The position numbers and the translations under genes are program-made. From an uncultured Candidatus Saccharibacteria bacterium (GTDB lineage Bacteria; Patescibacteriota; Saccharimonadia; Saccharimonadales; AWTP1-31), in NCBI GenBank assembly GCA_964536985.1, contig CAZIBG010000002.1:18738-82737 (forward strand): 64,000 bases of DNA, written 5' to 3'. Below the pieces are notes generated by a model that searched no databases, was not told the origin of the DNA, and was given only the letters and a program-made list of their open reading frames with translations. Shown here piece after piece: positions 3,753 through 48,952 of the stretch. The first letter of the stretch is position 1, and each line of letters opens with the position of its first letter.

Positions 3753-3820
3753 AAATTTCCTTCGTGTTATTTTCTGGTAGAGAGGGTCCAGAACACTCAG
3801 GATATGAGAGTTGCTAGTTG

Positions 3821-3870
3821 CCCGGTTACGCTACTGACTCCACAATACTCAAGCGTCCAAATTACGAGTT
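3821..3870. repeat. Conserved ~50-nt leader motif A (copy 1); related copies at 8059..8106 and 8257..8310
   Basis: Shared core ccggttacgctaYtgRctc...aagcgtccaRattac. A short stem acgct/agcgt is retained in all copies while the loop varies. Confidence 0.5.
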
Positions 3871-3986
3871 ATTGCTTCACGGTCTACAACCAAATTGCTT
3901 TGATTAACCACAGCGTACTATGGAAGTTTGTTTGCTGTCAACAAAGTTACATAAAATCTATACTTTTTAGATCTAAAATGTTGTAA

Positions 3987-5858: not shown

Positions 5859-6566
5859 CTACTCTTCTGAGAATAGGTATTTACAAAACTCTGGTCCACG
5901 TTCGGAAACACTTGTAATGCTTTCGTCGATAACTACATCCACTCCAAATTCGCCAACATCTTTTTTAGCGAACTGTTCTTCGGTTTCATGATGTACGAAA
6001 ACGGAGTCTCCGTTTTGGCTACTGAAGCCGTTAACTTGGTTTTCTAGTTCGGCTTTAAGCGCGCAGGATAGTTCCTCTTGGTCGGAATATCTACTATCTG
6101 TAATGAAACTCGCTTTTTTTACCTGAACAACATCACCTATAAGCTGTAACCGTAATTTGGTGGTGTCTTCGAACTCTTCTGGCTCAAGAGCCCACACTTC
6201 GCCAGTTACACCAAATCTAGCACCAGAACTGGTAGTCAAAATCTTATCGAGAGGCTTATGATCGAACTCCTCAACCACGTCAGCTTTGTCGGCTATTGTC
6301 ATGGCTTTGCGGATTGTTGGTATTAAGCCAATTGTAACGCCTAGAATAACTGGTGCGAGTGCCACGCAAGCAGCTTTCTTGAGCTGCTCACGAGAAGGAG
6401 TCCTTCTTTTCTTTTCTATAGGAGCGGCGGCGGCGCGCTCTGCTAACCAGTCGTTGCGGGCAGATGTCACAAAGCGTTCTAGCTCATGATCGCCAATGCT
6501 ACGGTAGTTTTGGTCCATGACTAGATCTCTTCCCACACCTTTTTTTGCGCTTCTAGTAAATCCCAA
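5859..6566 (-). CDS. Hypothetical membrane-anchored protein (copy 2)
   Basis: Identical to 1621..2328. Confidence 0.45.
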   Translation of the reverse strand: MGFTRSAKKGVGRDLVMDQNYRSIGDHELERFVTSARNDWLAERAAAAPIEKKRRTPSREQLKKAACVALAPVILGVTIGLIPTIRKAMTIADKADVVEEFDHKPLDKILTTSSGARFGVTGEVWALEPEEFEDTTKLRLQLIGDVVQVKKASFITDSRYSDQEELSCALKAELENQVNGFSSQNGDSVFVHHETEEQFAKKDVGEFGVDVVIDESITSVSERGPEFCKYLFSEE

Positions 6567-7990
6567 CCGGCCCAGTTTGGCACATCCGCAACAGCAACAA
6601 AGACGCCGTCAGGATACGTATTGTCACGTTCTTCTTCTGCAACACGATACTCCTGATGTACTCCTGTAATTTCTGCACCAGAGCCTCCGGCAACAATTTT
6701 GAGTGCTCGCATGAACTCATCCATGCCTCTGTTGTCGAAATTTAACAAGTCATAGTCTGGCATGCCGTCTTCGCTAAAACCTGAACCGCGGGTGGTCATA
6801 GTTAGTATCTGTCGATTCTCTTCGTCAAAATGCAAACGCACGTAATTGTTGTAGTCGAGTCCGCCAACATTCACATCTAACTCCGGGTAATCTAGCCGGT
6901 TTTGACTGATAGAATTATTCAGATATAGACCGTCAACTTCCGCTATATAGGGGTCGTCGACACTTTTCTTATAGCCAACTTCGTAGCGCGAAAGCATCCT
7001 ATCTAACACCGTACTTTTTGCTTCTAAGGCCAGATATATTGCTTCGTCGGCAATATTATCCTGGTCAACAAGCTGTGCTAGAAGACCCGATAAATAATCG
7101 GATGTTCTGTCGCCTAAACCAGGCTTTGAATGGTTAAGCATGTCTACCAGGGCAGTTATTGTAGGCAAAGTACGTGATTCCAAACTATATGTATCAGAAT
7201 CTGTTCTTATGCGTCGTGCTGCCTGTGCGGGAGTCATCGCCCCTCGTGTAGCAGCCTCGGTATATCGATCTTGTTGCTCAGTCTCATCAAAATTAGTTCG
7301 CGCCCAAAGGTCAGCAACGTCAGCGGGGTTCAGTGTTAATAAATCCATAAATTCATCAATAACAAGATTTCTATTCTTTGGGTCTAGCGGACAGTCTTTT
7401 TCAAATTGGCTTATGATATGATCCGTTAAAAGATATTCAGCGCCATGACTATGACGAGTTGCGTCTTGACCAATATAAATTCCAAAAACTTTATCACCAC
7501 CAATAGACATCGATCGCTCACCCTCAAGTCCGTCGAATGAAATTTGAATAGTGTCAACCTTGATGGCATCTAGAAGTTCGCGGGGCATTTTATCTACAAA
7601 GTTAAAAAAGCTTCTGAGTGCATAATCTGCGTCTTCACGCTTCTCGCCAGCTAGTGTTCCGATGTTTCTGTCAAAACTGTAGCCGGTAGTTGCAATTCTG
7701 CTATTTACGGTTTCGACTAGAGCACCAGTTTCCGCCTCTTCGCCGAGATCTCCAATACCCAAGCCAACTTCCACGGGTTTTTCGCCGGCAGTCTTTAGAT
7801 AATCATAGGTTTGGTACGTAAGGGCGTCACGTTCAAGGGTTGACATACGGCAAGCCACAGCACCAATCGGCTGTGTAGATAGTTCTGGACTTCGGTCGGC
7901 GCTGTTTATTGCGCTCTCCGTGGATACAGACGGGATTAGGCTAAGTGCTGCGATTGTTGCACCGGCACGTAACATATCGATGTTTTTCAT
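6521..7990 (-). CDS. Hypothetical secreted protein (copy 2)
   Basis: Identical to 2283..3752. Confidence 0.55.
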   Translation of the reverse strand: MKNIDMLRAGATIAALSLIPSVSTESAINSADRSPELSTQPIGAVACRMSTLERDALTYQTYDYLKTAGEKPVEVGLGIGDLGEEAETGALVETVNSRIATTGYSFDRNIGTLAGEKREDADYALRSFFNFVDKMPRELLDAIKVDTIQISFDGLEGERSMSIGGDKVFGIYIGQDATRHSHGAEYLLTDHIISQFEKDCPLDPKNRNLVIDEFMDLLTLNPADVADLWARTNFDETEQQDRYTEAATRGAMTPAQAARRIRTDSDTYSLESRTLPTITALVDMLNHSKPGLGDRTSDYLSGLLAQLVDQDNIADEAIYLALEAKSTVLDRMLSRYEVGYKKSVDDPYIAEVDGLYLNNSISQNRLDYPELDVNVGGLDYNNYVRLHFDEENRQILTMTTRGSGFSEDGMPDYDLLNFDNRGMDEFMRALKIVAGGSGAEITGVHQEYRVAEEERDNTYPDGVFVAVADVPNWAGWDLLEAQKKVWEEI

Positions 7991-8147
7991 AAATTTCCTT
8001 CGTGTTATTTTCTGGTAGAGAGGGTCCAGAACACTCAGGATATGAGAGTTGCTAGTTGCCCGGTTACGCTACTGACTCCACAATACTCAAGCGTCCAAAT
8101 ACGAGTATTGCTTCACGGTCTACAACCAAATTACTTTGATTAGAAAT

Positions 8148-8176
8148 ATAATACGTCTTTGTGGATTGTTTGTCAA
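8148..8176 (-). promoter_or_regulatory. Sigma70-like promoter for the copy-2 secreted-protein gene
   Basis: On the minus strand: TTGACA, 17-bp spacer, TATTAT. It lies right at the duplication boundary, so copy 1 does not have this promoter. Confidence 0.4.
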
Positions 8177-8207
8177 TAATTATGTATCGAATGTATTCAA
8201 TCAAAAA

Positions 8208-8229
8208 CCCCGGACATTTCTGTCCGGGG
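8208..8229 (-). terminator. Rho-independent terminator
   Basis: Perfect hairpin ccccggacatttctgtccgggg followed by ttttt on the minus strand. It lies downstream of the trhO stop. Confidence 0.7.
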
Positions 8230-8256
8230 AAACACCACCAGCTGTCTCTCCTGTCG

Positions 8257-8310
8257 TCCGGTTACGCTATTGGCTCATTCACGTATAAGCGTCCAGATTA
8301 CTACGTGAGT
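8257..8310. repeat. Motif B, related to leader motif A; it lies inside the candidate sRNA unit
   Basis: tccggttacgctattggctcattcacgtataagcgtccagattactacgtgagt, aligned to the A motif. Confidence 0.5.
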
Positions 8311-8385
8311 TCATCGCCTACGACAGAAATTGAGTAGGTGGTTCTTATTTTATATCCTATTGATTAGCGTTGTCAAGTATATGAA

Positions 8386-9273
8386 CTACGCTATATGTGC
8401 GGTTTTATCTGTAGTTTGATGAGAAACACAGTGAGTTTTTTGATCACAGTTATCACATACGAGTACCAGTTTGTTGCAAGAAACTTCGGCGCAGTTGATG
8501 TATCGACTAGTCTTGCCTTGGCAATGAATACAATCACCAATATCTTTTGATTTATCGCTAAAGCGATGTGTCATGCGGTCGTCAAAAATGTGAAGTGCGC
8601 CTTCCCAGAGACCATCATCACCATACTTTTCGCCGTATTTTACGATTCCACCATCTATTTGGTATACCTCTTTAAAGCCACGGTTCTTCATCAGGACACT
8701 AAGGGCTTCACATCGAATACCGCCCGTACAATACGTAACGATTGGCTTGTCCTTGATATCGGCATACTTATCGCCCTCTAATTCTGTTAGGAAATCTCTG
8801 GTAGTTTGGGTGTCAGGCACAACTGCATCTTTAAATTTACCAACTGCGGCTTCATAAGCGTTTCGACCATCGAAGAAGATAACATCGTCGCGTTCATTTA
8901 CTAAGGCATTAACCTGCTCTGGCTTGAGGTGTTTACCGCCACCAACTACGCCTTTATCGTTGACTACTATCTCGTCAGGTGCGCCAAAGCTAACCAGCTC
9001 ATCTCGGACTTTGACGCTGAGCCGCGGGAACTCTCGCCCGTCGCTATCGCTCCACTTATACATGATGCCTTTGAAAATAATTGAGCGATTCATTTCTCGC
9101 TTATATTCGCGGAGGTTTTCTATATCACCACCAAGAGTTCCATTAATACCATGCTTGCTGATAATGATGCGACCTTTTAGCTGAAGCCTGCTGCAAAGCT
9201 CCTTTTGCCAACGCATAGTAATAGCCGCGTCAGCGACAGGCACAAATTTATAGTAAAGGATAACTTTATTCAT
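8386..9273 (-). CDS. trhO: Rhodanese-domain tRNA U34 hydroxylase (TrhO/YceA family)
   Basis: 295 aa. The N-terminus (ILYYKFVPVADA) and a rhodanese CTGGIRCE cysteine loop are typical of the YceA/TrhO family. A tataat box sits 8 nt upstream of the ATG. Confidence 0.7.
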   Translation of the reverse strand: MNKVILYYKFVPVADAAITMRWQKELCSRLQLKGRIIISKHGINGTLGGDIENLREYKREMNRSIIFKGIMYKWSDSDGREFPRLSVKVRDELVSFGAPDEIVVNDKGVVGGGKHLKPEQVNALVNERDDVIFFDGRNAYEAAVGKFKDAVVPDTQTTRDFLTELEGDKYADIKDKPIVTYCTGGIRCEALSVLMKNRGFKEVYQIDGGIVKYGEKYGDDGLWEGALHIFDDRMTHRFSDKSKDIGDCIHCQGKTSRYINCAEVSCNKLVLVCDNCDQKTHCVSHQTTDKTAHIA

Positions 9274-26081: not shown

Positions 26082-27344
26082 TTAGTAAATGTAGGAATAT
26101 CGGGCCGCGTCTTCAGGAGAAAGTGTCTTAGTACTGCGGACAGCCCAACCGCGAGTGTTCATTTCGGAGACGTTAACACTACCATCTGCATTGACTGATT
26201 CAACATAGCCAACGTGACCGTAATAGTCGCGTGGTGGAGTCCAAATAACCGCACCAGCTTGTGGCGTGTTGCCGACTGCAAACCCAGCACGTGACGCTAA
26301 TGACTTCCAGGTACTGGCGTTACCAAGGTTACTTGGAAGATCTGGGCGTCGAACTTTGACGTACCAAGTACAGTAACCATAGTCGTATCCATTATTGCCA
26401 TATACTGCTCCACCGCCCCATGAAAAACCTGCAGGATTCGCTCGCGCCGATCGTGGTGCCACCGGTGCAGCTATAGAACCATCTCGGATCAAGATATTTC
26501 GACCAACTACAAGGTTAGCGCTCTCTGCATCGTTATCGGCTATGATTTGATCCTTTGTAGCCTTGAACTTGCTAGCAATACTATCGATTGTATCGCCGTC
26601 CTTAACTTTATAAACAACTCCGTTGACGGGAGAAATTAGAATCTTCTTACCAGCCTGGATAGCATCGCCCTGTAGGCCGTTAGACCAGCGAATAGTATCC
26701 GATGTAATGCCAAACTTTGCAGCGATTGACGGTATTGTGTCGCCTTCGACCACTAAGTATTCTTGGATGTCTTTATAGGACTTGAGAGTAGTTGCAACCA
26801 CCTGAGGTTTAGCGACCACCGTATCGTCGGAAGCGGTTACCGCTAGTTGTGCGTTAACGGTATCAGCCTTGTTAACAACTGATGGAGTTTCGGGTAAGTT
26901 AGTCATAAAAGCTACATGCACAGCGATGTCAGCAGAAGAAAGCTGATCCAGAGCATTGGAAGCGACGGTAGAATCTTCCGTAACGACACTATTATTAGCA
27001 GCTACAGGGGCCGTGCCAGGACTACGCATCACAAAAGTAGCCACACCCACGAGCATGACAATATTGGCAACCAAAATGCCATATCTCACGATTCGTTTCT
27101 TGGAACGTGTATTTAAACCGGTTTTGATTTGTTTTTGTGTTTTAGATTGAATCTGTGCGATTTTATCAATCGGACTAGTTTCCACCGTTTTTCTAAAGAT
27201 ACGAATTGTATTCTCCTGGGCTGAAGCCGCAGATCGAGGATGGTTGTTAATTGATATTTTGAGCGATCGACTCACTCTTCTTATTAGTAAACAACCTCGA
27301 TACAGTTTACTTGCTCCATAACAGTGGTAACAGGGGTGGATCAC
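26082..27344 (-). CDS. LysM-domain and CHAP-domain peptidoglycan hydrolase; the start is uncertain
   Basis: Two LysM-like repeats (DTIPSIAAKFG, DTIDSIASKF) and a C-terminal CHAP Cys/His region (CTWYVKV...GHVGYVE). The ORF-track N-terminus is probably over-extended. Confidence 0.65.
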   Translation of the reverse strand: MIHPCYHCYGASKLYRGCLLIRRVSRSLKISINNHPRSAASAQENTIRIFRKTVETSPIDKIAQIQSKTQKQIKTGLNTRSKKRIVRYGILVANIVMLVGVATFVMRSPGTAPVAANNSVVTEDSTVASNALDQLSSADIAVHVAFMTNLPETPSVVNKADTVNAQLAVTASDDTVVAKPQVVATTLKSYKDIQEYLVVEGDTIPSIAAKFGITSDTIRWSNGLQGDAIQAGKKILISPVNGVVYKVKDGDTIDSIASKFKATKDQIIADNDAESANLVVGRNILIRDGSIAAPVAPRSARANPAGFSWGGGAVYGNNGYDYGYCTWYVKVRRPDLPSNLGNASTWKSLASRAGFAVGNTPQAGAVIWTPPRDYYGHVGYVESVNADGSVNVSEMNTRGWAVRSTKTLSPEDAARYSYIY

Positions 27345-27426: not shown

Positions 27427-28476
27427 CTACTGACAGAGTTTTGTGCAATATTTTGCGGTCAGTGCCTCGTGTTCCTCTAGGGTACGGCTAAAGTGAGTTA
27501 CTCCGTCATCCCCAGACACAAAGTACAGCCAATCAGTAGACGCCGGATTTGCAACGGCCTTAAGTGAACTCTCGCTTACATTACTAATGGGACCAGGAGT
27601 TAGCCCTTCGACTAAGTACGTATTGTACGGCGAGTCATAGGTGAGCGAAGGGTCAACGCCGTCTAGTATGGCGCCGTAACTGGCAGTAGCATCAGACTGT
27701 AGTTTTATATCAGAGGATAGACGCTTGAGGAATACTTGTGCCACCTTTGTACGGTCGCCACCGTCGGACACCTCGCGCTCAACAATGGAAGCCAAGATTA
27801 TGGCACGATGAACACTCAGTCCTTGGCTTGCAAATGCTTCACGGATATCTGGAGTTAACCGTTTCTGCATCTCGTCTAGTGAGGCTCGTACAATCTCCTC
27901 AGGGGTAGTGGCAGCAGTCTTTTGAAATGATTCAGGATATAGGTAACCTTCTAGCGATGCATCGACTGGTTTATCAACCAGGGCTGGATGACCGGCATAC
28001 GTTGCTGGGTCTAGGGCTTTCTTGACCGCCTCGGGCTTGAAGCCGCTGTTAACAAGCGTTTGTTCGATCTGGTCAATGCGCTGGGCAGGCTTGATAGTTA
28101 TAAGATTACTGGCCACCTTACCCTCCGTAATTATCTTAACAATATCGGCAACACCCTGGCTGGGTTTAATTGCGTAGGTACCAGCCTGGATTAGGTTCTG
28201 ATAGTTTCTACTGAGCACATATTGTCGGAATGCCCATTCATTACGAATTAGCTTTTTATCATGAAGTAGCTTGGCTACGTCGGATAAGGCAGACCCCGTG
28301 GGTATCGTTATCGTAACGGTCTTCTGGCTGGTACTGACGGCCTGCAAGTTATTGAAGTAGTATCGCCGTGCCAATAAAACACTTCCTAACCCGGCAAGGA
28401 CGATCAGGCAAACAATGGTAATGACTACTTTTGATCGTAATAAAAATCGTGCAGGGTTAGATCTACTCATTACCAT
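27427..28476 (-). CDS. mltG: YceG/MltG-like endolytic murein transglycosylase
   Basis: 349 aa with an N-terminal TM anchor and YceG-like layout. Its position after ruvX is the conserved ruvX-mltG arrangement. Confidence 0.6.
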   Translation of the reverse strand: MVMSRSNPARFLLRSKVVITIVCLIVLAGLGSVLLARRYYFNNLQAVSTSQKTVTITIPTGSALSDVAKLLHDKKLIRNEWAFRQYVLSRNYQNLIQAGTYAIKPSQGVADIVKIITEGKVASNLITIKPAQRIDQIEQTLVNSGFKPEAVKKALDPATYAGHPALVDKPVDASLEGYLYPESFQKTAATTPEEIVRASLDEMQKRLTPDIREAFASQGLSVHRAIILASIVEREVSDGGDRTKVAQVFLKRLSSDIKLQSDATASYGAILDGVDPSLTYDSPYNTYLVEGLTPGPISNVSESSLKAVANPASTDWLYFVSGDDGVTHFSRTLEEHEALTAKYCTKLCQ

Positions 28477-34311: not shown

Positions 34312-34378
34312 TAATTCCTGCAGGTATAGCCACTACACCTAGAGTGACTGGTGTTTCTTGTTGTATTTGTTTGCCCAT
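34274..34378 (-). CDS. Candidate 34-aa ORF (MGKQIQQETPVTLGVVAIPAGINGAQRPRWRDDV) with a strong GAAGGAG RBS
   Basis: GAAGGAGataatt precedes the ATG. The ORF lies just downstream, in the minus-strand sense, of 85-bp repeat copy 1. Confidence 0.25.
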   Translation of the reverse strand: MGKQIQQETPVTLGVVAIPAGINGAQRPRWRDDV

Positions 34379-34456
34379 AATTATCTCCTTCAGAGGTTAT
34401 GGAACTCGTCTCCACAAACTAAAATAAACACCTGGTGGTGTATGAGTTTAAGAGGG

Positions 34457-34541
34457 AGAATTCGTCCCGGTTTCGCTACTTGCTCCCCGTGTATCCAAGC
34501 GACCAGATACAGATATACGGATCATTGCATGACTTTACGTC
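34457..34541. repeat. 85-bp exact direct repeat, copy 1 of 2
   Basis: Identical to 37370..37454. It contains the imperfect hairpin ccgtgtatc...gatatacgg. Confidence 0.9.
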
Positions 34542-37317: not shown

Positions 37318-37369
37318 AGTTAATACTCCAACTAATATTTATTAGTGGGCGAAATATGCAATTATGCAA

Positions 37370-37454
37370 AGAATTCGTCCCGGTTTCGCTACTTGCTCCC
37401 CGTGTATCCAAGCGACCAGATACAGATATACGGATCATTGCATGACTTTACGTC
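37370..37454. repeat. 85-bp exact direct repeat, copy 2 of 2
   Basis: Identical to 34457..34541. It sits about 50 nt upstream of the cassette's first start codon and is flanked by AT-rich DNA. Confidence 0.9.
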
Positions 37455-48498: not shown

Positions 48499-48515
48499 AT
48501 GGTGGAGCTGCCGGT
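48499..48515. repeat. Right copy of the imperfect direct repeat flanking the HNH cassette; overlaps the tRNA-like fragment
   Basis: See 47958..47974. Confidence 0.4.
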
Positions 48516-48532
48516 GATCGCAACCGGGTCCG
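48500..48532 (-). other. tRNA 3'-end-like fragment (T-arm, acceptor 3' strand and CCA), possibly an integration-site remnant
   Basis: Minus strand reads ccggt-tgcgatc-accgg-cagctcc-a-cca. No matching 5' acceptor strand (ggagctg) lies upstream, and the T-loop is non-canonical. Confidence 0.3.
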
Positions 48533-48952
48533 TCAGTTAACATGGCTCAATGACTACAGGCTTAGTTTGTCTTATATTTCTTTAGCCAAAATGCTAGAGA
48601 CAAACAAAAAACATGCTGGCTGCAGCCCTAAGGCTTAGCTATACGTAGGGGCAACTACGTATAGAGCAATCAGAAGTATATAGCGCTGACACAAAATATC
48701 TGATGTCTCTTGTGAAGCGGCATCCTAATTAAATTAGGCTGCTAGTGCGTAGTCTGCGTTTCGAGCGAAAATTTCTTTTACGCTTGTTAGCAAGTCTGCG
48801 CGAGCTGTAGAATTTTCTGCAACTGTGTTGTTTGATCCAGCTAACGTGTAGATCAATCCGGCCTGCCATTTGAGTCTGTTAAAGTCCAACGTCGAGCTTA
48901 AAATTCAGCCCCATTAAGCAGTATTATATCATAAATTAAGCATTAGTGATAT

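What the first reader, a model, noticed from the sequence alone, without database searches (positions are those of the whole stretch)
8203..8340. Candidate small RNA: a complete promoter-to-terminator unit immediately downstream of trhO
On the minus strand a near-consensus -35 TTGACA begins about 10 nt after the trhO stop, followed by a ~16-17 bp spacer and an A/T -10 (TATAAA/TAAAAT). About 130 nt later comes a perfect intrinsic terminator (ccccggacagaaatgtccgggg plus TTTTT). The interval has no ORF and contains motif B, which resembles the 5'-leader motif of the downstream mRNA. Either trhO has an unusually long structured 3' UTR, or there is an independent or 3'UTR-derived sRNA.
Basis: partly seen in the sequence, partly recalled or inferred. 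Interest (0 to 1): 0.55.

Follow-up and report, generated by a model that had tools for sequence, protein, structure and literature searches.

The report
Stand-alone c-di-GMP-II aptamer RNA after trhO
The "candidate small RNA" is a c-di-GMP-II riboswitch aptamer (a known RNA family) in a Saccharibacteria genome, unusual only in being packaged as its own promoter-to-terminator unit with no gene behind it, next to a second, ordinary copy of the same riboswitch.

Summary
On the minus strand there is a TTGACA-18-TAAAAT promoter (8376..8347), about 120 nt without an ORF, and a 9-bp GC-rich terminator plus U-run (8229..8203).

It is a complete c-di-GMP-II riboswitch aptamer (Rfam RF01786, 8330..8247, 61.8 bits against a gathering score of 53.5). 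"Motif B" is simply a second copy (8132..8049), which has its own promoter and leads the downstream 489-aa gene.

The organism is a Candidatus Saccharibacteria (TM7). The same unit sits directly after trhO in seven related species. Three features recur:
- The promoter hexamers are invariant and lie at a fixed distance from the aptamer.
- A covarying 15-20 bp closing helix pairs the predicted 5' end with the stretch just before the terminator.
- The terminator is strong, with no conserved antiterminator.

In one species the next gene is convergent. By contrast, the neighbouring "type B" copies have weak P1 stems and classic terminator/antiterminator platforms.

Best reading: an autonomous RNA of about 140 nt that binds c-di-GMP (a decoy or buffer, like merRNA). 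The rivals are the first half of a tandem OFF switch and a trhO 3'UTR element. It is a known family in a new lineage and an unusual packaging, of moderate interest.

The parts
8347..8376 (-). Unit A promoter: -35 TTGACA (8376..8371), 18-nt spacer, -10 TAAAAT (8352..8347). The predicted start of transcription is about 8342-8340.
   Evidence: The scan scores it 11 of 12. Both hexamers and the spacing are invariant in 7 species. The distance to the trhO stop varies from 9 to 56 nt, but the distance to the aptamer is fixed at 14-17 nt.
8320..8342 (-). 5' strand of the long closing helix (ACCACCUACUCAAUUUCUGUCGU). It consists of P0 at the very 5' end of the predicted transcript plus the aptamer's P1 5' strand.
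   Evidence: MFE and centroid structures. Cognate strand pairs are more stable than non-cognate ones across 7 species: -19.3 against -11.6 kcal/mol, permutation p = 0.00025.
8247..8330 (-). c-di-GMP-II riboswitch aptamer (Rfam RF01786), copy 1 ('type A').
   Evidence: cmscan gives 61.8 bits against a gathering score of 53.5, E = 2e-11, covering the full model 1-84. Covariation of P1, P2, P3 and the pseudoknot is seen in 15 Saccharibacteria aptamers.
8234..8257 (-). 3' strand of the closing helix: the P1 3' strand ACGACAGGAG, then the linker, then GGUGGU, which pairs with the 5' end. The GGUG motif is conserved in all 7 species.
8203..8229 (-). Intrinsic terminator: CCCCGGACA-GAAA-UGUCCGGGG followed by UUUUU. 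It also ends any read-through from trhO.
   Evidence: A terminator sits at the same position in all 7 species, with different stem sequences in L009, L013, L211 and L219.
8148..8176 (-). Unit B promoter (TTGACA-17-TATTAT), lying between the unit A terminator and the second aptamer.
   Evidence: The scan scores it 11 of 12. By eye, an orthologous promoter-like sequence (TTGACA followed by an A/T-rich -10) precedes type B aptamers in species that lack unit A, most clearly in L014 (TTGACA-17-TATTAT), and less exactly in L015, L211, L212 and L219.
8049..8132 (-). c-di-GMP-II aptamer, copy 2 ('type B'), in the 5' leader of the 489-aa gene.
   Evidence: cmscan gives 62.5 bits.
6521..7990 (-). The 489-aa orphan protein, with an N-terminus that looks like a signal peptide. 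It is the first gene of the cassette behind aptamer 2.
   Evidence: ORF list. No Pfam match. Only 2 homologues (98% and 87% identity) among 5.8 billion proteins.
8386..9273 (-). trhO (UPF0176/rhodanese), the upstream gene. It has no terminator of its own before unit A.

Best explanation
What it is. The region 8376..8203 (minus strand) is an autonomous transcription unit. It should produce a non-coding RNA of about 140 nt. The body of that RNA is a c-di-GMP-II riboswitch-class aptamer.

How it differs from the ordinary riboswitch next to it. The aptamer is held shut by a 15-20 bp closing helix. This helix starts at the predicted 5' end and ends 2-6 nt before a strong intrinsic terminator. No conserved alternative (antiterminator) pairing exists. 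So the terminator is probably constitutive, and the RNA does not switch a downstream gene.

Most likely function. The RNA probably binds c-di-GMP as a free molecule. It would act as a decoy or buffer that competes for the messenger with the cis-acting type B OFF riboswitches encoded beside it. In relatives these type B copies control secreted cell-wall hydrolases; here one controls an orphan secreted-protein cassette. The same terminator also ends trhO transcripts.

Shown: family identity, conservation, the closing helix, the contrast with type B.
Inferred: the start of transcription, constitutive termination.
Speculative: the decoy or buffer role.
For: 1. Family identity. RF01786 scores 61.8 bits against a gathering score of 53.5 over the full model. 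The pseudoknot ACGC:GCGU is doubly compensated relative to the family consensus GCAC:GUGC. It is 100% paired in 15 local aptamers. Across these aptamers, 15 of 19 helix pairs show changes on both sides and 86.9% of cells are paired, with 0 of 500 shuffles as good.

2. Conservation of the unit. Seven distinct units sit right after trhO in related Saccharibacteria: the window, L011, L013, L009 (same as L217), L211, L212 (close to L216) and L219. TTGACA-18-TAAAAT is invariant. The distance from the -10 to the aptamer is 14-17 nt, while the distance from the trhO stop varies from 9 to 56 nt.

3. Closing helix. It has 15-20 bp in every species. Cognate strands average -19.3 kcal/mol against -11.6 for non-cognate pairs (permutation p = 0.00025). 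Type B P1 stems average only -7.5 kcal/mol and about 10 bp.

4. No conserved antiterminator. The best partner of the terminator's 5' arm differs between species and is no better than in shuffles. Truncated transcripts keep the closed rod in L011, L009, L211, L212 and L219. As a positive control, in 5 of 6 type B units the terminator arm GGUUUGG maps onto the P1 3' strand.

5. Context. In L009 and L217, two independent assemblies, the next gene is convergent and ends 8 nt after the terminator. In the window, L011, L211, L212 and L219 the following type B aptamer has its own promoter-like sequence.

6. Selection on the fold between near-identical strains. L212 and L216 are 99% identical, and their two differences in P2 both preserve pairing.

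7. Precedent. merRNA of Bdellovibrio is a c-di-GMP riboswitch inside an sRNA with no downstream ORF, proposed to act as a c-di-GMP sponge (PMC3627812).
Against: - There are no expression data. The start of transcription, the RNA's abundance and the efficiency of termination are all predictions.
- In the window itself, a 9-bp pairing could serve as an antiterminator: AUUUCUGUC of the P1 5' strand with GACAGAAAU in the terminator arm and loop. It is about isoenergetic with the closed form (-34.5 against -33.7 kcal/mol).
- Wherever the downstream context is known, a type B unit follows, immediately in five species and about 2 kb away in L009. That pattern also fits a functional tandem.
- Tandem c-di-GMP-II riboswitches are common elsewhere (PMC9481103).
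- ViennaRNA ignores the pseudoknot, the ligand and folding kinetics.
- I could not show that these bacteria make c-di-GMP.
- L011's aptamer scores below the Rfam threshold (45.3 bits), and L212's has a G-to-U change in the conserved GAG.
Confidence: 0.5

Rival explanations
1. It is the first half of a tandem riboswitch. Unit A would be a transcriptional OFF switch. At low c-di-GMP its read-through continues into the second riboswitch and the 489-aa cassette. This would add a second promoter input and sharpen the response.
For: - A type B unit follows unit A in the window, L011, L211, L212 and L219.
- The window's RNA has a 9-bp potential antiterminator that is isoenergetic with the closed form.
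- 59 doublets and 9 triplets of c-di-GMP-II riboswitches are reported (PMC9481103).
- True tandems with no promoter in between were seen here in metagenome loci L164, L166, L163 and L092.
Against: - A promoter-like sequence lies between the two aptamers: 11 of 12 in the window, and visible by eye in the relatives. Type B works without unit A in L010, L012, L014 and L015.
- The antiterminator is not conserved. It is absent in L011, L009, L211, L212 and L219, and in the window it is no better than in shuffles (p = 0.27).
- The closing helix is about 12 kcal/mol more stable than the type B P1 stems.
- In L009 and L217 the terminator is followed by a convergent gene.
Confidence: 0.25
2. It is mainly the structured 3'UTR and terminator of trhO. 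The aptamer would sit in the trhO 3'UTR, and the hairpin is simply trhO's terminator. Any effect of c-di-GMP would be on the stability of the trhO mRNA.
For: - The unit always lies directly downstream of trhO, on the same strand.
- No other terminator lies between the trhO stop and the unit.
- trhO read-through must therefore contain the aptamer.
Against: - An invariant promoter keeps a fixed distance to the aptamer but a variable distance to the trhO stop.
- The closing helix begins right at the predicted start of transcription.
- Species with similar trhO genes manage without the unit (L010, L012, L014, L015, L016).
Confidence: 0.12
3. It is a base-pairing regulator. It would act either as a trans-acting sRNA, like the terminated SAM riboswitches SreA and SreB of Listeria, or through riboswitch-controlled antisense transcription into a convergent gene, as the L009 layout might suggest.
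For: - Terminated riboswitch transcripts can act in trans (established knowledge; mentioned in PMC3627812).
- c-di-GMP riboswitches have the strongest tendency of any family to lie antisense to genes (152 antisense against 2,554 sense; PMC9943018).
- L009 and L217 have a convergent gene right after the unit.
Against: - Complementarity to the type B platform and start region, or to the trhO start region, is no better than in shuffles, in both the window and L011 (p = 0.43-0.75).
- The convergent layout occurs in only one of seven species.
- Almost the whole RNA is buried in helices, leaving no obvious seed.
Confidence: 0.08
4. It is a decaying relic of a duplicated riboswitch whose gene was lost or replaced. 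It would have no present function beyond terminating trhO.
For: - L011's aptamer scores below the Rfam threshold (45.3 bits).
- L009 has CCGA in place of CCGG, and L212 has UAG in place of GAG.
- This locus rearranges easily: there is a 4,238-bp tandem duplication with its junction inside an aptamer.
Against: - Seven species keep the promoter, the aptamer core, the pseudoknot, the closing helix and the terminator.
- The stem sequences are fully different but still paired.
- Differences between near-identical strains preserve pairing.
Confidence: 0.05

Closest known systems
c-di-GMP-II riboswitch (Rfam RF01786; described in Clostridia, e.g. upstream of pilin, adhesin and group I ribozyme genes in C. 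difficile)
   Same: - The full aptamer is present: P1, P2, P3, the pseudoknot and the conserved core (UGA, GAG, AACCGG).
- It scores above Rfam's curated threshold.
- Its helices covary.
   Different: - There is no adjacent co-oriented ORF and no conserved expression platform.
- P1 is extended to a closing helix of 15-20 bp.
- It has its own promoter and a terminator that looks constitutive.
- The host is a Saccharibacteria (Patescibacteria). No paper in the searchable library links this class to that group.
merRNA of Bdellovibrio bacteriovorus (a c-di-GMP-I riboswitch inside a massively expressed 445-nt sRNA; PMC3627812)
   Same: - It is a c-di-GMP aptamer in a non-coding transcript with no conserved downstream ORF.
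- It was proposed to act as a sponge or store for c-di-GMP.
- Both hosts live on other bacteria. For Saccharibacteria this rests on established knowledge.
   Different: - The aptamer belongs to class II, not class I.
- The RNA is about 140 nt, not 445 nt.
- Its expression level is unknown.
- It sits beside cis-acting riboswitches of the same class.
Tandem c-di-GMP-II riboswitches (59 doublets and 9 triplets, mostly in Paraclostridium; PMC9481103)
   Same: Two aptamers of the same class lie in series upstream of one gene, the first with its own terminator.
   Different: - A promoter-like sequence separates the two copies.
- The first copy lacks a conserved antiterminator.
- True tandems seen here in metagenomes (L164, L166, L092) have no such promoter.
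3'UTR-derived sRNAs with their own promoter that share the mRNA's terminator (e.g. MicL and DapZ in enterobacteria; established knowledge)
   Same: The promoter lies just after the upstream ORF, and the terminator is shared with read-through from trhO.
   Different: Those sRNAs act through a base-pairing seed and Hfq. Here the RNA body is a ligand-binding aptamer and no target complementarity was found.

Membership tests
c-di-GMP-II riboswitch aptamer (RF01786) | The covariance-model score reaches the family's curated gathering score over the full model | tested here: met
   61.8 bits against 53.5, model positions 1-84, E = 2.3e-11. Orthologous type A copies score 61.8 (L013), 55.5 (L009) and 45.3 (L011, below threshold).
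c-di-GMP-II riboswitch aptamer (RF01786) | Helices P1, P2 and P3 supported by covariation | tested here: met
   In 15 aptamers, 86.9% of cells are paired and 15 of 19 pairs change on both sides. No shuffle out of 500 does as well, and slid controls reach only 31-44%.
c-di-GMP-II riboswitch aptamer (RF01786) | Pseudoknot between the P2 loop (UGGNNNC) and the 3' junction (GNGN before AACCG) | tested here: met
   ACGC:GCGU is 100% paired, and one pair covaries (A-U to U-A) in the copies at 34.5 kb and 37.4 kb. It is doubly compensated relative to the family consensus GCAC:GUGC (alignment).
c-di-GMP-II riboswitch aptamer (RF01786) | Binds c-di-GMP selectively | not testable with these tools
   The core nucleotides that are upper-case in the Rfam consensus are present, apart from compensated pairs and a few loop positions. 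Binding needs in-line probing or ITC.
Riboswitch in the functional sense (cis-regulatory leader) | An expression platform whose terminator or RBS pairing competes with the aptamer, upstream of a co-oriented gene | tested here: not met
   There is no conserved antiterminator. The nearest co-oriented ORF has its own promoter and aptamer. In L009 and L217 the next gene is convergent. The window alone has a possible 9-bp antiterminator. Type B units meet this criterion.
Tandem riboswitch (same class, pseudo-cooperative) | Both aptamers lie in one 5'UTR, so the first one gates transcription of the second | tested here: inconclusive
   The order A then B is conserved in 5 species, but a promoter-like sequence lies between them and the terminator looks constitutive.
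Riboswitch-containing sRNA / c-di-GMP sponge (merRNA-like) | A discrete, abundant non-coding transcript that carries the aptamer, with no gene under its control | not testable with these tools
   The architecture fits: own promoter, closed rod, terminator, no ORF. Abundance and the transcript ends need RNA data.
3'UTR-derived sRNA with internal promoter | Shares its terminator with the upstream mRNA, and has a promoter at or after the end of the ORF | tested here: met
   No terminator lies between the trhO stop and the unit, and the promoter is 9-56 nt after the stop. Promoter activity itself is predicted, not measured.

The most novel reading that the evidence does not exclude
Saccharibacteria, which are ultra-small bacteria living on other bacteria, encode a dedicated free-standing c-di-GMP-II aptamer RNA. 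It would titrate the second messenger, setting the threshold at which the neighbouring OFF riboswitches release expression of secreted cell-wall hydrolases and orphan effectors. By my own arithmetic, one molecule in a cell of about 0.01 fL corresponds to roughly 100 nM. A handful of RNA copies could therefore control the whole c-di-GMP pool. If these genomes lack diguanylate cyclases, which I could not test, the RNAs might even sense c-di-GMP coming from the host.
Probability: 0.3. Interest if true: 0.7.

Novelty: new member of a known kind. Interest (0 to 1): 0.4.

Why it matters
The element is not a new RNA family, and any Rfam-based annotation would flag it. Three points still go beyond routine annotation.

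1. c-di-GMP-II riboswitches are dense in this Saccharibacteria lineage. There are at least five in 64 kb. In relatives they sit in front of large peptidoglycan hydrolases. This points to c-di-GMP control of the host-attack or cell-wall machinery in a group whose regulation is almost unknown.

2. The unit after trhO is a conserved natural example of a riboswitch aptamer apparently uncoupled from any gene and locked shut. That is the architecture expected for a ligand decoy or buffer. The only proposed c-di-GMP precedent known to me is merRNA, and its sponge role is still untested.

3. An autonomous copy and a classic switching copy lie side by side. This gives a clean system for testing experimentally whether RNA decoys tune second-messenger thresholds.

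Tried and rejected
- **Coding potential.** There is no minus-strand ORF in the unit. The plus-strand ORFs of 50 and 58 aa overlap covarying helices, so I rejected them.

- **Other Rfam families.** With a lax E-value cut-off the only other hits are noise (Spot_42 at 18.8 bits, anti-hemB at 16.4 bits). They are driven by the terminator.

- **Conserved antiterminator.** I tested duplexes between the terminator arms and the upstream RNA against shuffles, and I folded truncated transcripts. Nothing is conserved for type A. The pairing specific to the window has p = 0.27. The same test did recover the expected platform in type B.

- **Trans-acting base pairing.** Complementarity to the type B platform and start region and to the trhO start region is no better than chance.

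- **RNAalifold on a MAFFT alignment of six units.** It recovered P2, P3 and the terminator but not the closing helix, whose length varies and which MAFFT misaligns. I replaced it with the test of cognate against non-cognate strand pairs.

- **Metagenome pattern scan for more type A units.** They held ordinary leaders and some true tandems, but no additional type A unit.

- **Homologues of the 489-aa target.** Only two exist, both near-identical, so they were useless for comparison.

- **GGDEF, EAL, HD-GYP and PilZ motifs.** I searched the window and about 1 Mb of related loci with regular expressions. No GGDEF motif turned up. The sample is about 13 kb per genome, so this says nothing about the genomes as a whole.

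- **Literature on c-di-GMP or GGDEF proteins in Saccharibacteria.** Nothing relevant was found.

- **Structure paper for ligand contacts.** It is not held in the library.

Full report
**1. The observation**

All coordinates in this section are on the minus strand. The ORF 9273..8386 is trhO, with Pfam UPF0176_N, Rhodanese and Rhodanese_C. Nine bases after its stop codon comes TTGACA (8376..8371). An 18-nt spacer follows, then TAAAAT (8352..8347). The consensus scan scores this promoter 11 of 12.

The hairpin CCCCGGACA-GAAA-TGTCCGGGG (8229..8208) followed by TTTTT is the best terminator-like site in the 2-kb region scanned. No minus-strand ORF lies between the promoter and the terminator.

Within the window alone, the promoter and terminator counts do not stand out from shuffles. 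The evidence that the unit is real comes from other genomes (section 4).

**2. What the interior is**

A scan of the window against Rfam 15 at curated thresholds places a complete c-di-GMP-II riboswitch aptamer (RF01786) at 8330..8247. It scores 61.8 bits against a gathering score of 53.5.

A second aptamer lies at 8132..8049 (62.5 bits), 58 nt upstream of the ATG of the 489-aa ORF.

A third copy at 3896..3811 scores 51.9 bits, just under threshold, because of two single-base insertions. Two more near-identical aptamers lie at 34541..34456 and 37454..37369.

Relative to the family consensus, the pseudoknot GCAC:GUGC has become ACGC:GCGU. Both changed pairs are compensated (alignment).

Between the terminator and aptamer 2 lies a second promoter, TTGACA-17-TATTAT (8176..8148, 11 of 12).

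**3. Organism and local context**

trhO relatives of 65-87% identity all come from Candidatus Saccharibacteria / Saccharimonadales genomes assembled from metagenomes. Strain-level contigs carry an identical unit.

The 489-aa protein behind aptamer 2 has no Pfam domain. It has only two homologues, both near-identical, among 5.8 billion proteins.

Window positions 1..~3860 are 100% identical to 4239..~8098. This is a 4,238-bp tandem duplication of a cassette made of the aptamer, the 489-aa, 235-aa and 175-aa genes, and a lyase gene. The junction of the duplication lies inside the aptamer. In one strain (L007) the cassette is single-copy, and the next aptamer there precedes a 1,038-aa protein with an SLT domain.

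**4. Comparative evidence**

I built a covariance model from the window's aptamers. I searched it over 80 trhO loci from species-representative genomes. I then searched further contigs reached through trhO homologues. Two kinds of unit appear after trhO.

*Type A, the finding.* It occurs in seven distinct sequences: the window, L011, L013, L009 (identical to L217, an independent assembly), L211 (same as L214 and L215), L212 (close to L216) and L219.

- All seven have an invariant TTGACA-18-TAAAAT.
- The promoter lies 9-56 nt from the trhO stop but always 14-17 nt from the aptamer.
- The aptamer follows, then a short linker containing GGUG, then a GC-rich terminator with a U-run. The stem sequences of the terminator differ between species.
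- There is no ORF in any of them.

What follows type A:
- In five species, a type B unit with its own promoter-like sequence.
- In L009 and L217, a convergent 643-aa gene whose stop codon is 8 nt from the terminator. A type B unit follows about 2 kb later.
- In L013, the contig ends.

*Type B.* This type has its own promoter-like sequence, the motif "aatcaaagc", and an aptamer beginning AAUUUGGUUG. Most copies in relatives also have a terminator of the form GCGGUUUGG...CCAAACCGCUUUU. The window's own type B copies and L011's first type B copy lack a recognisable terminator.

Type B alone follows trhO in L010, L012, L014 and L015. There it precedes large proteins with glucosaminidase (L010), amidase_2 plus GDSL (L014) or LysM (L015) domains. 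Type B copies elsewhere precede SLT-domain proteins (L011, L007, and the called genes in L211 and L212).

In a rough trhO tree the species that carry type A cluster together.

*Covariation.* Across 15 aptamers, 86.9% of cells are paired. Fifteen of 19 helix pairs change on both sides. No shuffle out of 500 is as good, and slid controls reach only 31-44%. The pseudoknot is 100% paired. L212 and L216 are 99% identical, and their two differences in P2 both keep pairing.

**5. Is unit A a switch?**

Three computations say probably not.

(a) *The closing helix.* In all seven species the 5' leader, starting 5-7 nt after the -10, pairs with the stretch that ends 2-6 nt before the terminator. This extends P1 to 15-20 bp.
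- Each species' own two strands pair better than strands swapped between species: -19.3 against -11.6 kcal/mol. The cognate pair is best in 5 of 7 rows and 6 of 7 columns (permutation p = 0.00025). So the helix covaries.
- Type B P1 stems reach only -7.5 kcal/mol and about 10 bp. That marginal stability is what a switch needs.

(b) *No conserved antiterminator.* The best partner of the terminator's 5' arm maps to different places in different species and is no better than in shuffles. Transcripts truncated before the 3' arm keep the closed rod and leave the 5' arm free in L011, L009, L211, L212 and L219.
- In type B, by contrast, the arm GGUUUGG maps to the P1 3' strand in 5 of 6 units. Truncated folds there show the antiterminator. 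Type B units with this terminator therefore look like OFF switches.

(c) *The exception is the window itself.* AUUUCUGUC of the P1 5' strand can pair with GACAGAAAU in the terminator arm and loop. The energy is -34.5 kcal/mol, against -33.7 for the closed rod. So a lineage-specific OFF switch cannot be excluded here.

The whole 140-nt RNA folds at -52.3 kcal/mol with a z-score of -4.03.

**6. Mechanism proposed**

*Shown:*
- The aptamer belongs to the c-di-GMP-II family and is under selection.
- A promoter-like and a terminator-like element are conserved at fixed positions around it.
- A covarying helix closes the RNA from its predicted 5' end.
- No gene is attached.

*Inferred:*
- Transcription starts at about 8342-8340 and ends at about 8207-8203, giving an RNA of about 140 nt.
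- trhO read-through ends at the same hairpin.
- Termination is constitutive.

*Speculative:*
- The free RNA binds c-di-GMP and acts as a decoy or buffer for the neighbouring cis-acting copies. This is analogous to the sponge role proposed for Bdellovibrio merRNA (PMC3627812).

I found no complementarity that would suggest base pairing in trans.

**7. Rivals**

- *Tandem OFF riboswitch* (0.25). In favour: the A-then-B order is conserved, the window has a possible antiterminator, and tandem c-di-GMP-II riboswitches are common elsewhere (PMC9481103). I also saw true tandems in L164, L166, L163 and L092.
- *trhO 3'UTR and terminator only* (0.12).
- *Base-pairing or antisense regulator* (0.08). c-di-GMP riboswitches are the family most often found antisense to genes (PMC9943018).
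- *Decaying relic* (0.05).

**8. Comparison with known systems, and novelty**

As an aptamer it is a member of RF01786: the score, the helices, the pseudoknot and the core are all met, and ligand binding is untested. As a riboswitch in the functional sense it fails the test for an expression platform. In working terms it resembles merRNA, or a 3'UTR-type sRNA with its own promoter, more than it resembles a leader.

No paper in the searchable library links c-di-GMP-II with Saccharibacteria. I could not determine whether these genomes encode diguanylate cyclases.

I file it as a new member of a known kind, in a new lineage and with unusual packaging. Interest is moderate (0.4). It would rise to about 0.7 if the decoy role, or sensing of host-derived c-di-GMP, were demonstrated.

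Noticed in passing
window 1..~3860 and 4239..~8098: There is a perfect (100% identical) tandem duplication with a 4,238-bp period. The repeated cassette is the aptamer, the 489-aa, 235-aa and 175-aa (weakly GNAT-like) genes, and a Lyase_1 gene. Identity breaks inside the aptamer's P2, so recombination between riboswitch copies probably produced it. The window's left edge lies inside a repeat unit, so more copies may exist. In strain L007 the cassette is single-copy. In one Logan assembly it forms a separate 4,251-bp contig, close to one repeat period, which suggests the repeat collapsed in assembly.
   Followed up: partly
window 3811..3896 (-): A third c-di-GMP-II aptamer leads the second cassette copy. 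It has two single-base insertions in P2 and its loop, and scores 51.9 bits, just under Rfam's 53.5. A scan at the curated threshold misses it.
   Followed up: yes
window 34456..34541 (-) and 37369..37454 (-): Rfam assigns two near-identical aptamers to the variant family c-di-GMP-II-GAG (46.3 and 45.0 bits). They keep the canonical AACCGG, and their pseudoknot simply covaries (UCGC:GCGA). They look like ordinary c-di-GMP-II copies rather than the variant. They precede a small ORF starting at 34377 and an operon of orphan proteins of 233, 234 and 415 aa with no Pfam match for the two tested.
   Followed up: partly
L010 7090-9651, L014 3131-6043, L015 7152-10262, L011 8957-11839, L007 6347-9463, L211 5428-8469, L212 5776-8715: In related Saccharibacteria the type B c-di-GMP-II riboswitches sit in front of very large (853-1,038 aa) proteins with peptidoglycan-hydrolase or binding domains: SLT, glucosaminidase, amidase_2 plus GDSL, and LysM. 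Most have a predicted OFF-type terminator platform. This suggests that c-di-GMP represses cell-wall-degrading enzymes in these bacteria that live on other bacteria.
   Followed up: partly
window 6521..7990 (-): The 489-aa protein behind aptamer 2 has an N-terminus that looks like a signal peptide. It has no Pfam domain and only two homologues (98% and 87% identity) among 5.8 billion clustered proteins.
   Followed up: partly
window 8203..8376 compared with L011 6908..7085: Between the window and its closest relative with the unit, the promoter is almost identical (29 of 30 bases, including the spacer) and so is the terminator (20 of 22). Yet the P1/closing-helix and P2 stem sequences are completely different. 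I have no explanation for the constraint on the spacer. It could be a regulator's binding site, or the aptamer may have been exchanged by recombination.
   Followed up: no
L164 5151-5341, L166 520-724 (rc), L163, L092 11118-11296: These metagenome contigs from unidentified organisms carry true tandem c-di-GMP-II riboswitches. Each aptamer has its own terminator, with no promoter in between, upstream of one lipoprotein-like ORF. The spacing is 141-168 nt.
   Followed up: partly
window 48500..48912 (-): There is a tmRNA gene (RF00023, 78.5 bits). It is unusually long (413 nt against a 374-position model) and carries a large insertion in the tag-reading-frame region of the alignment.
   Followed up: no
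window 26082..27344 (-): There is a 420-aa protein with LysM and CHAP domains, a cell-wall hydrolase, with no riboswitch detected in front of it. A YceG/MltG-like gene lies nearby at 27427..28476.
   Followed up: no
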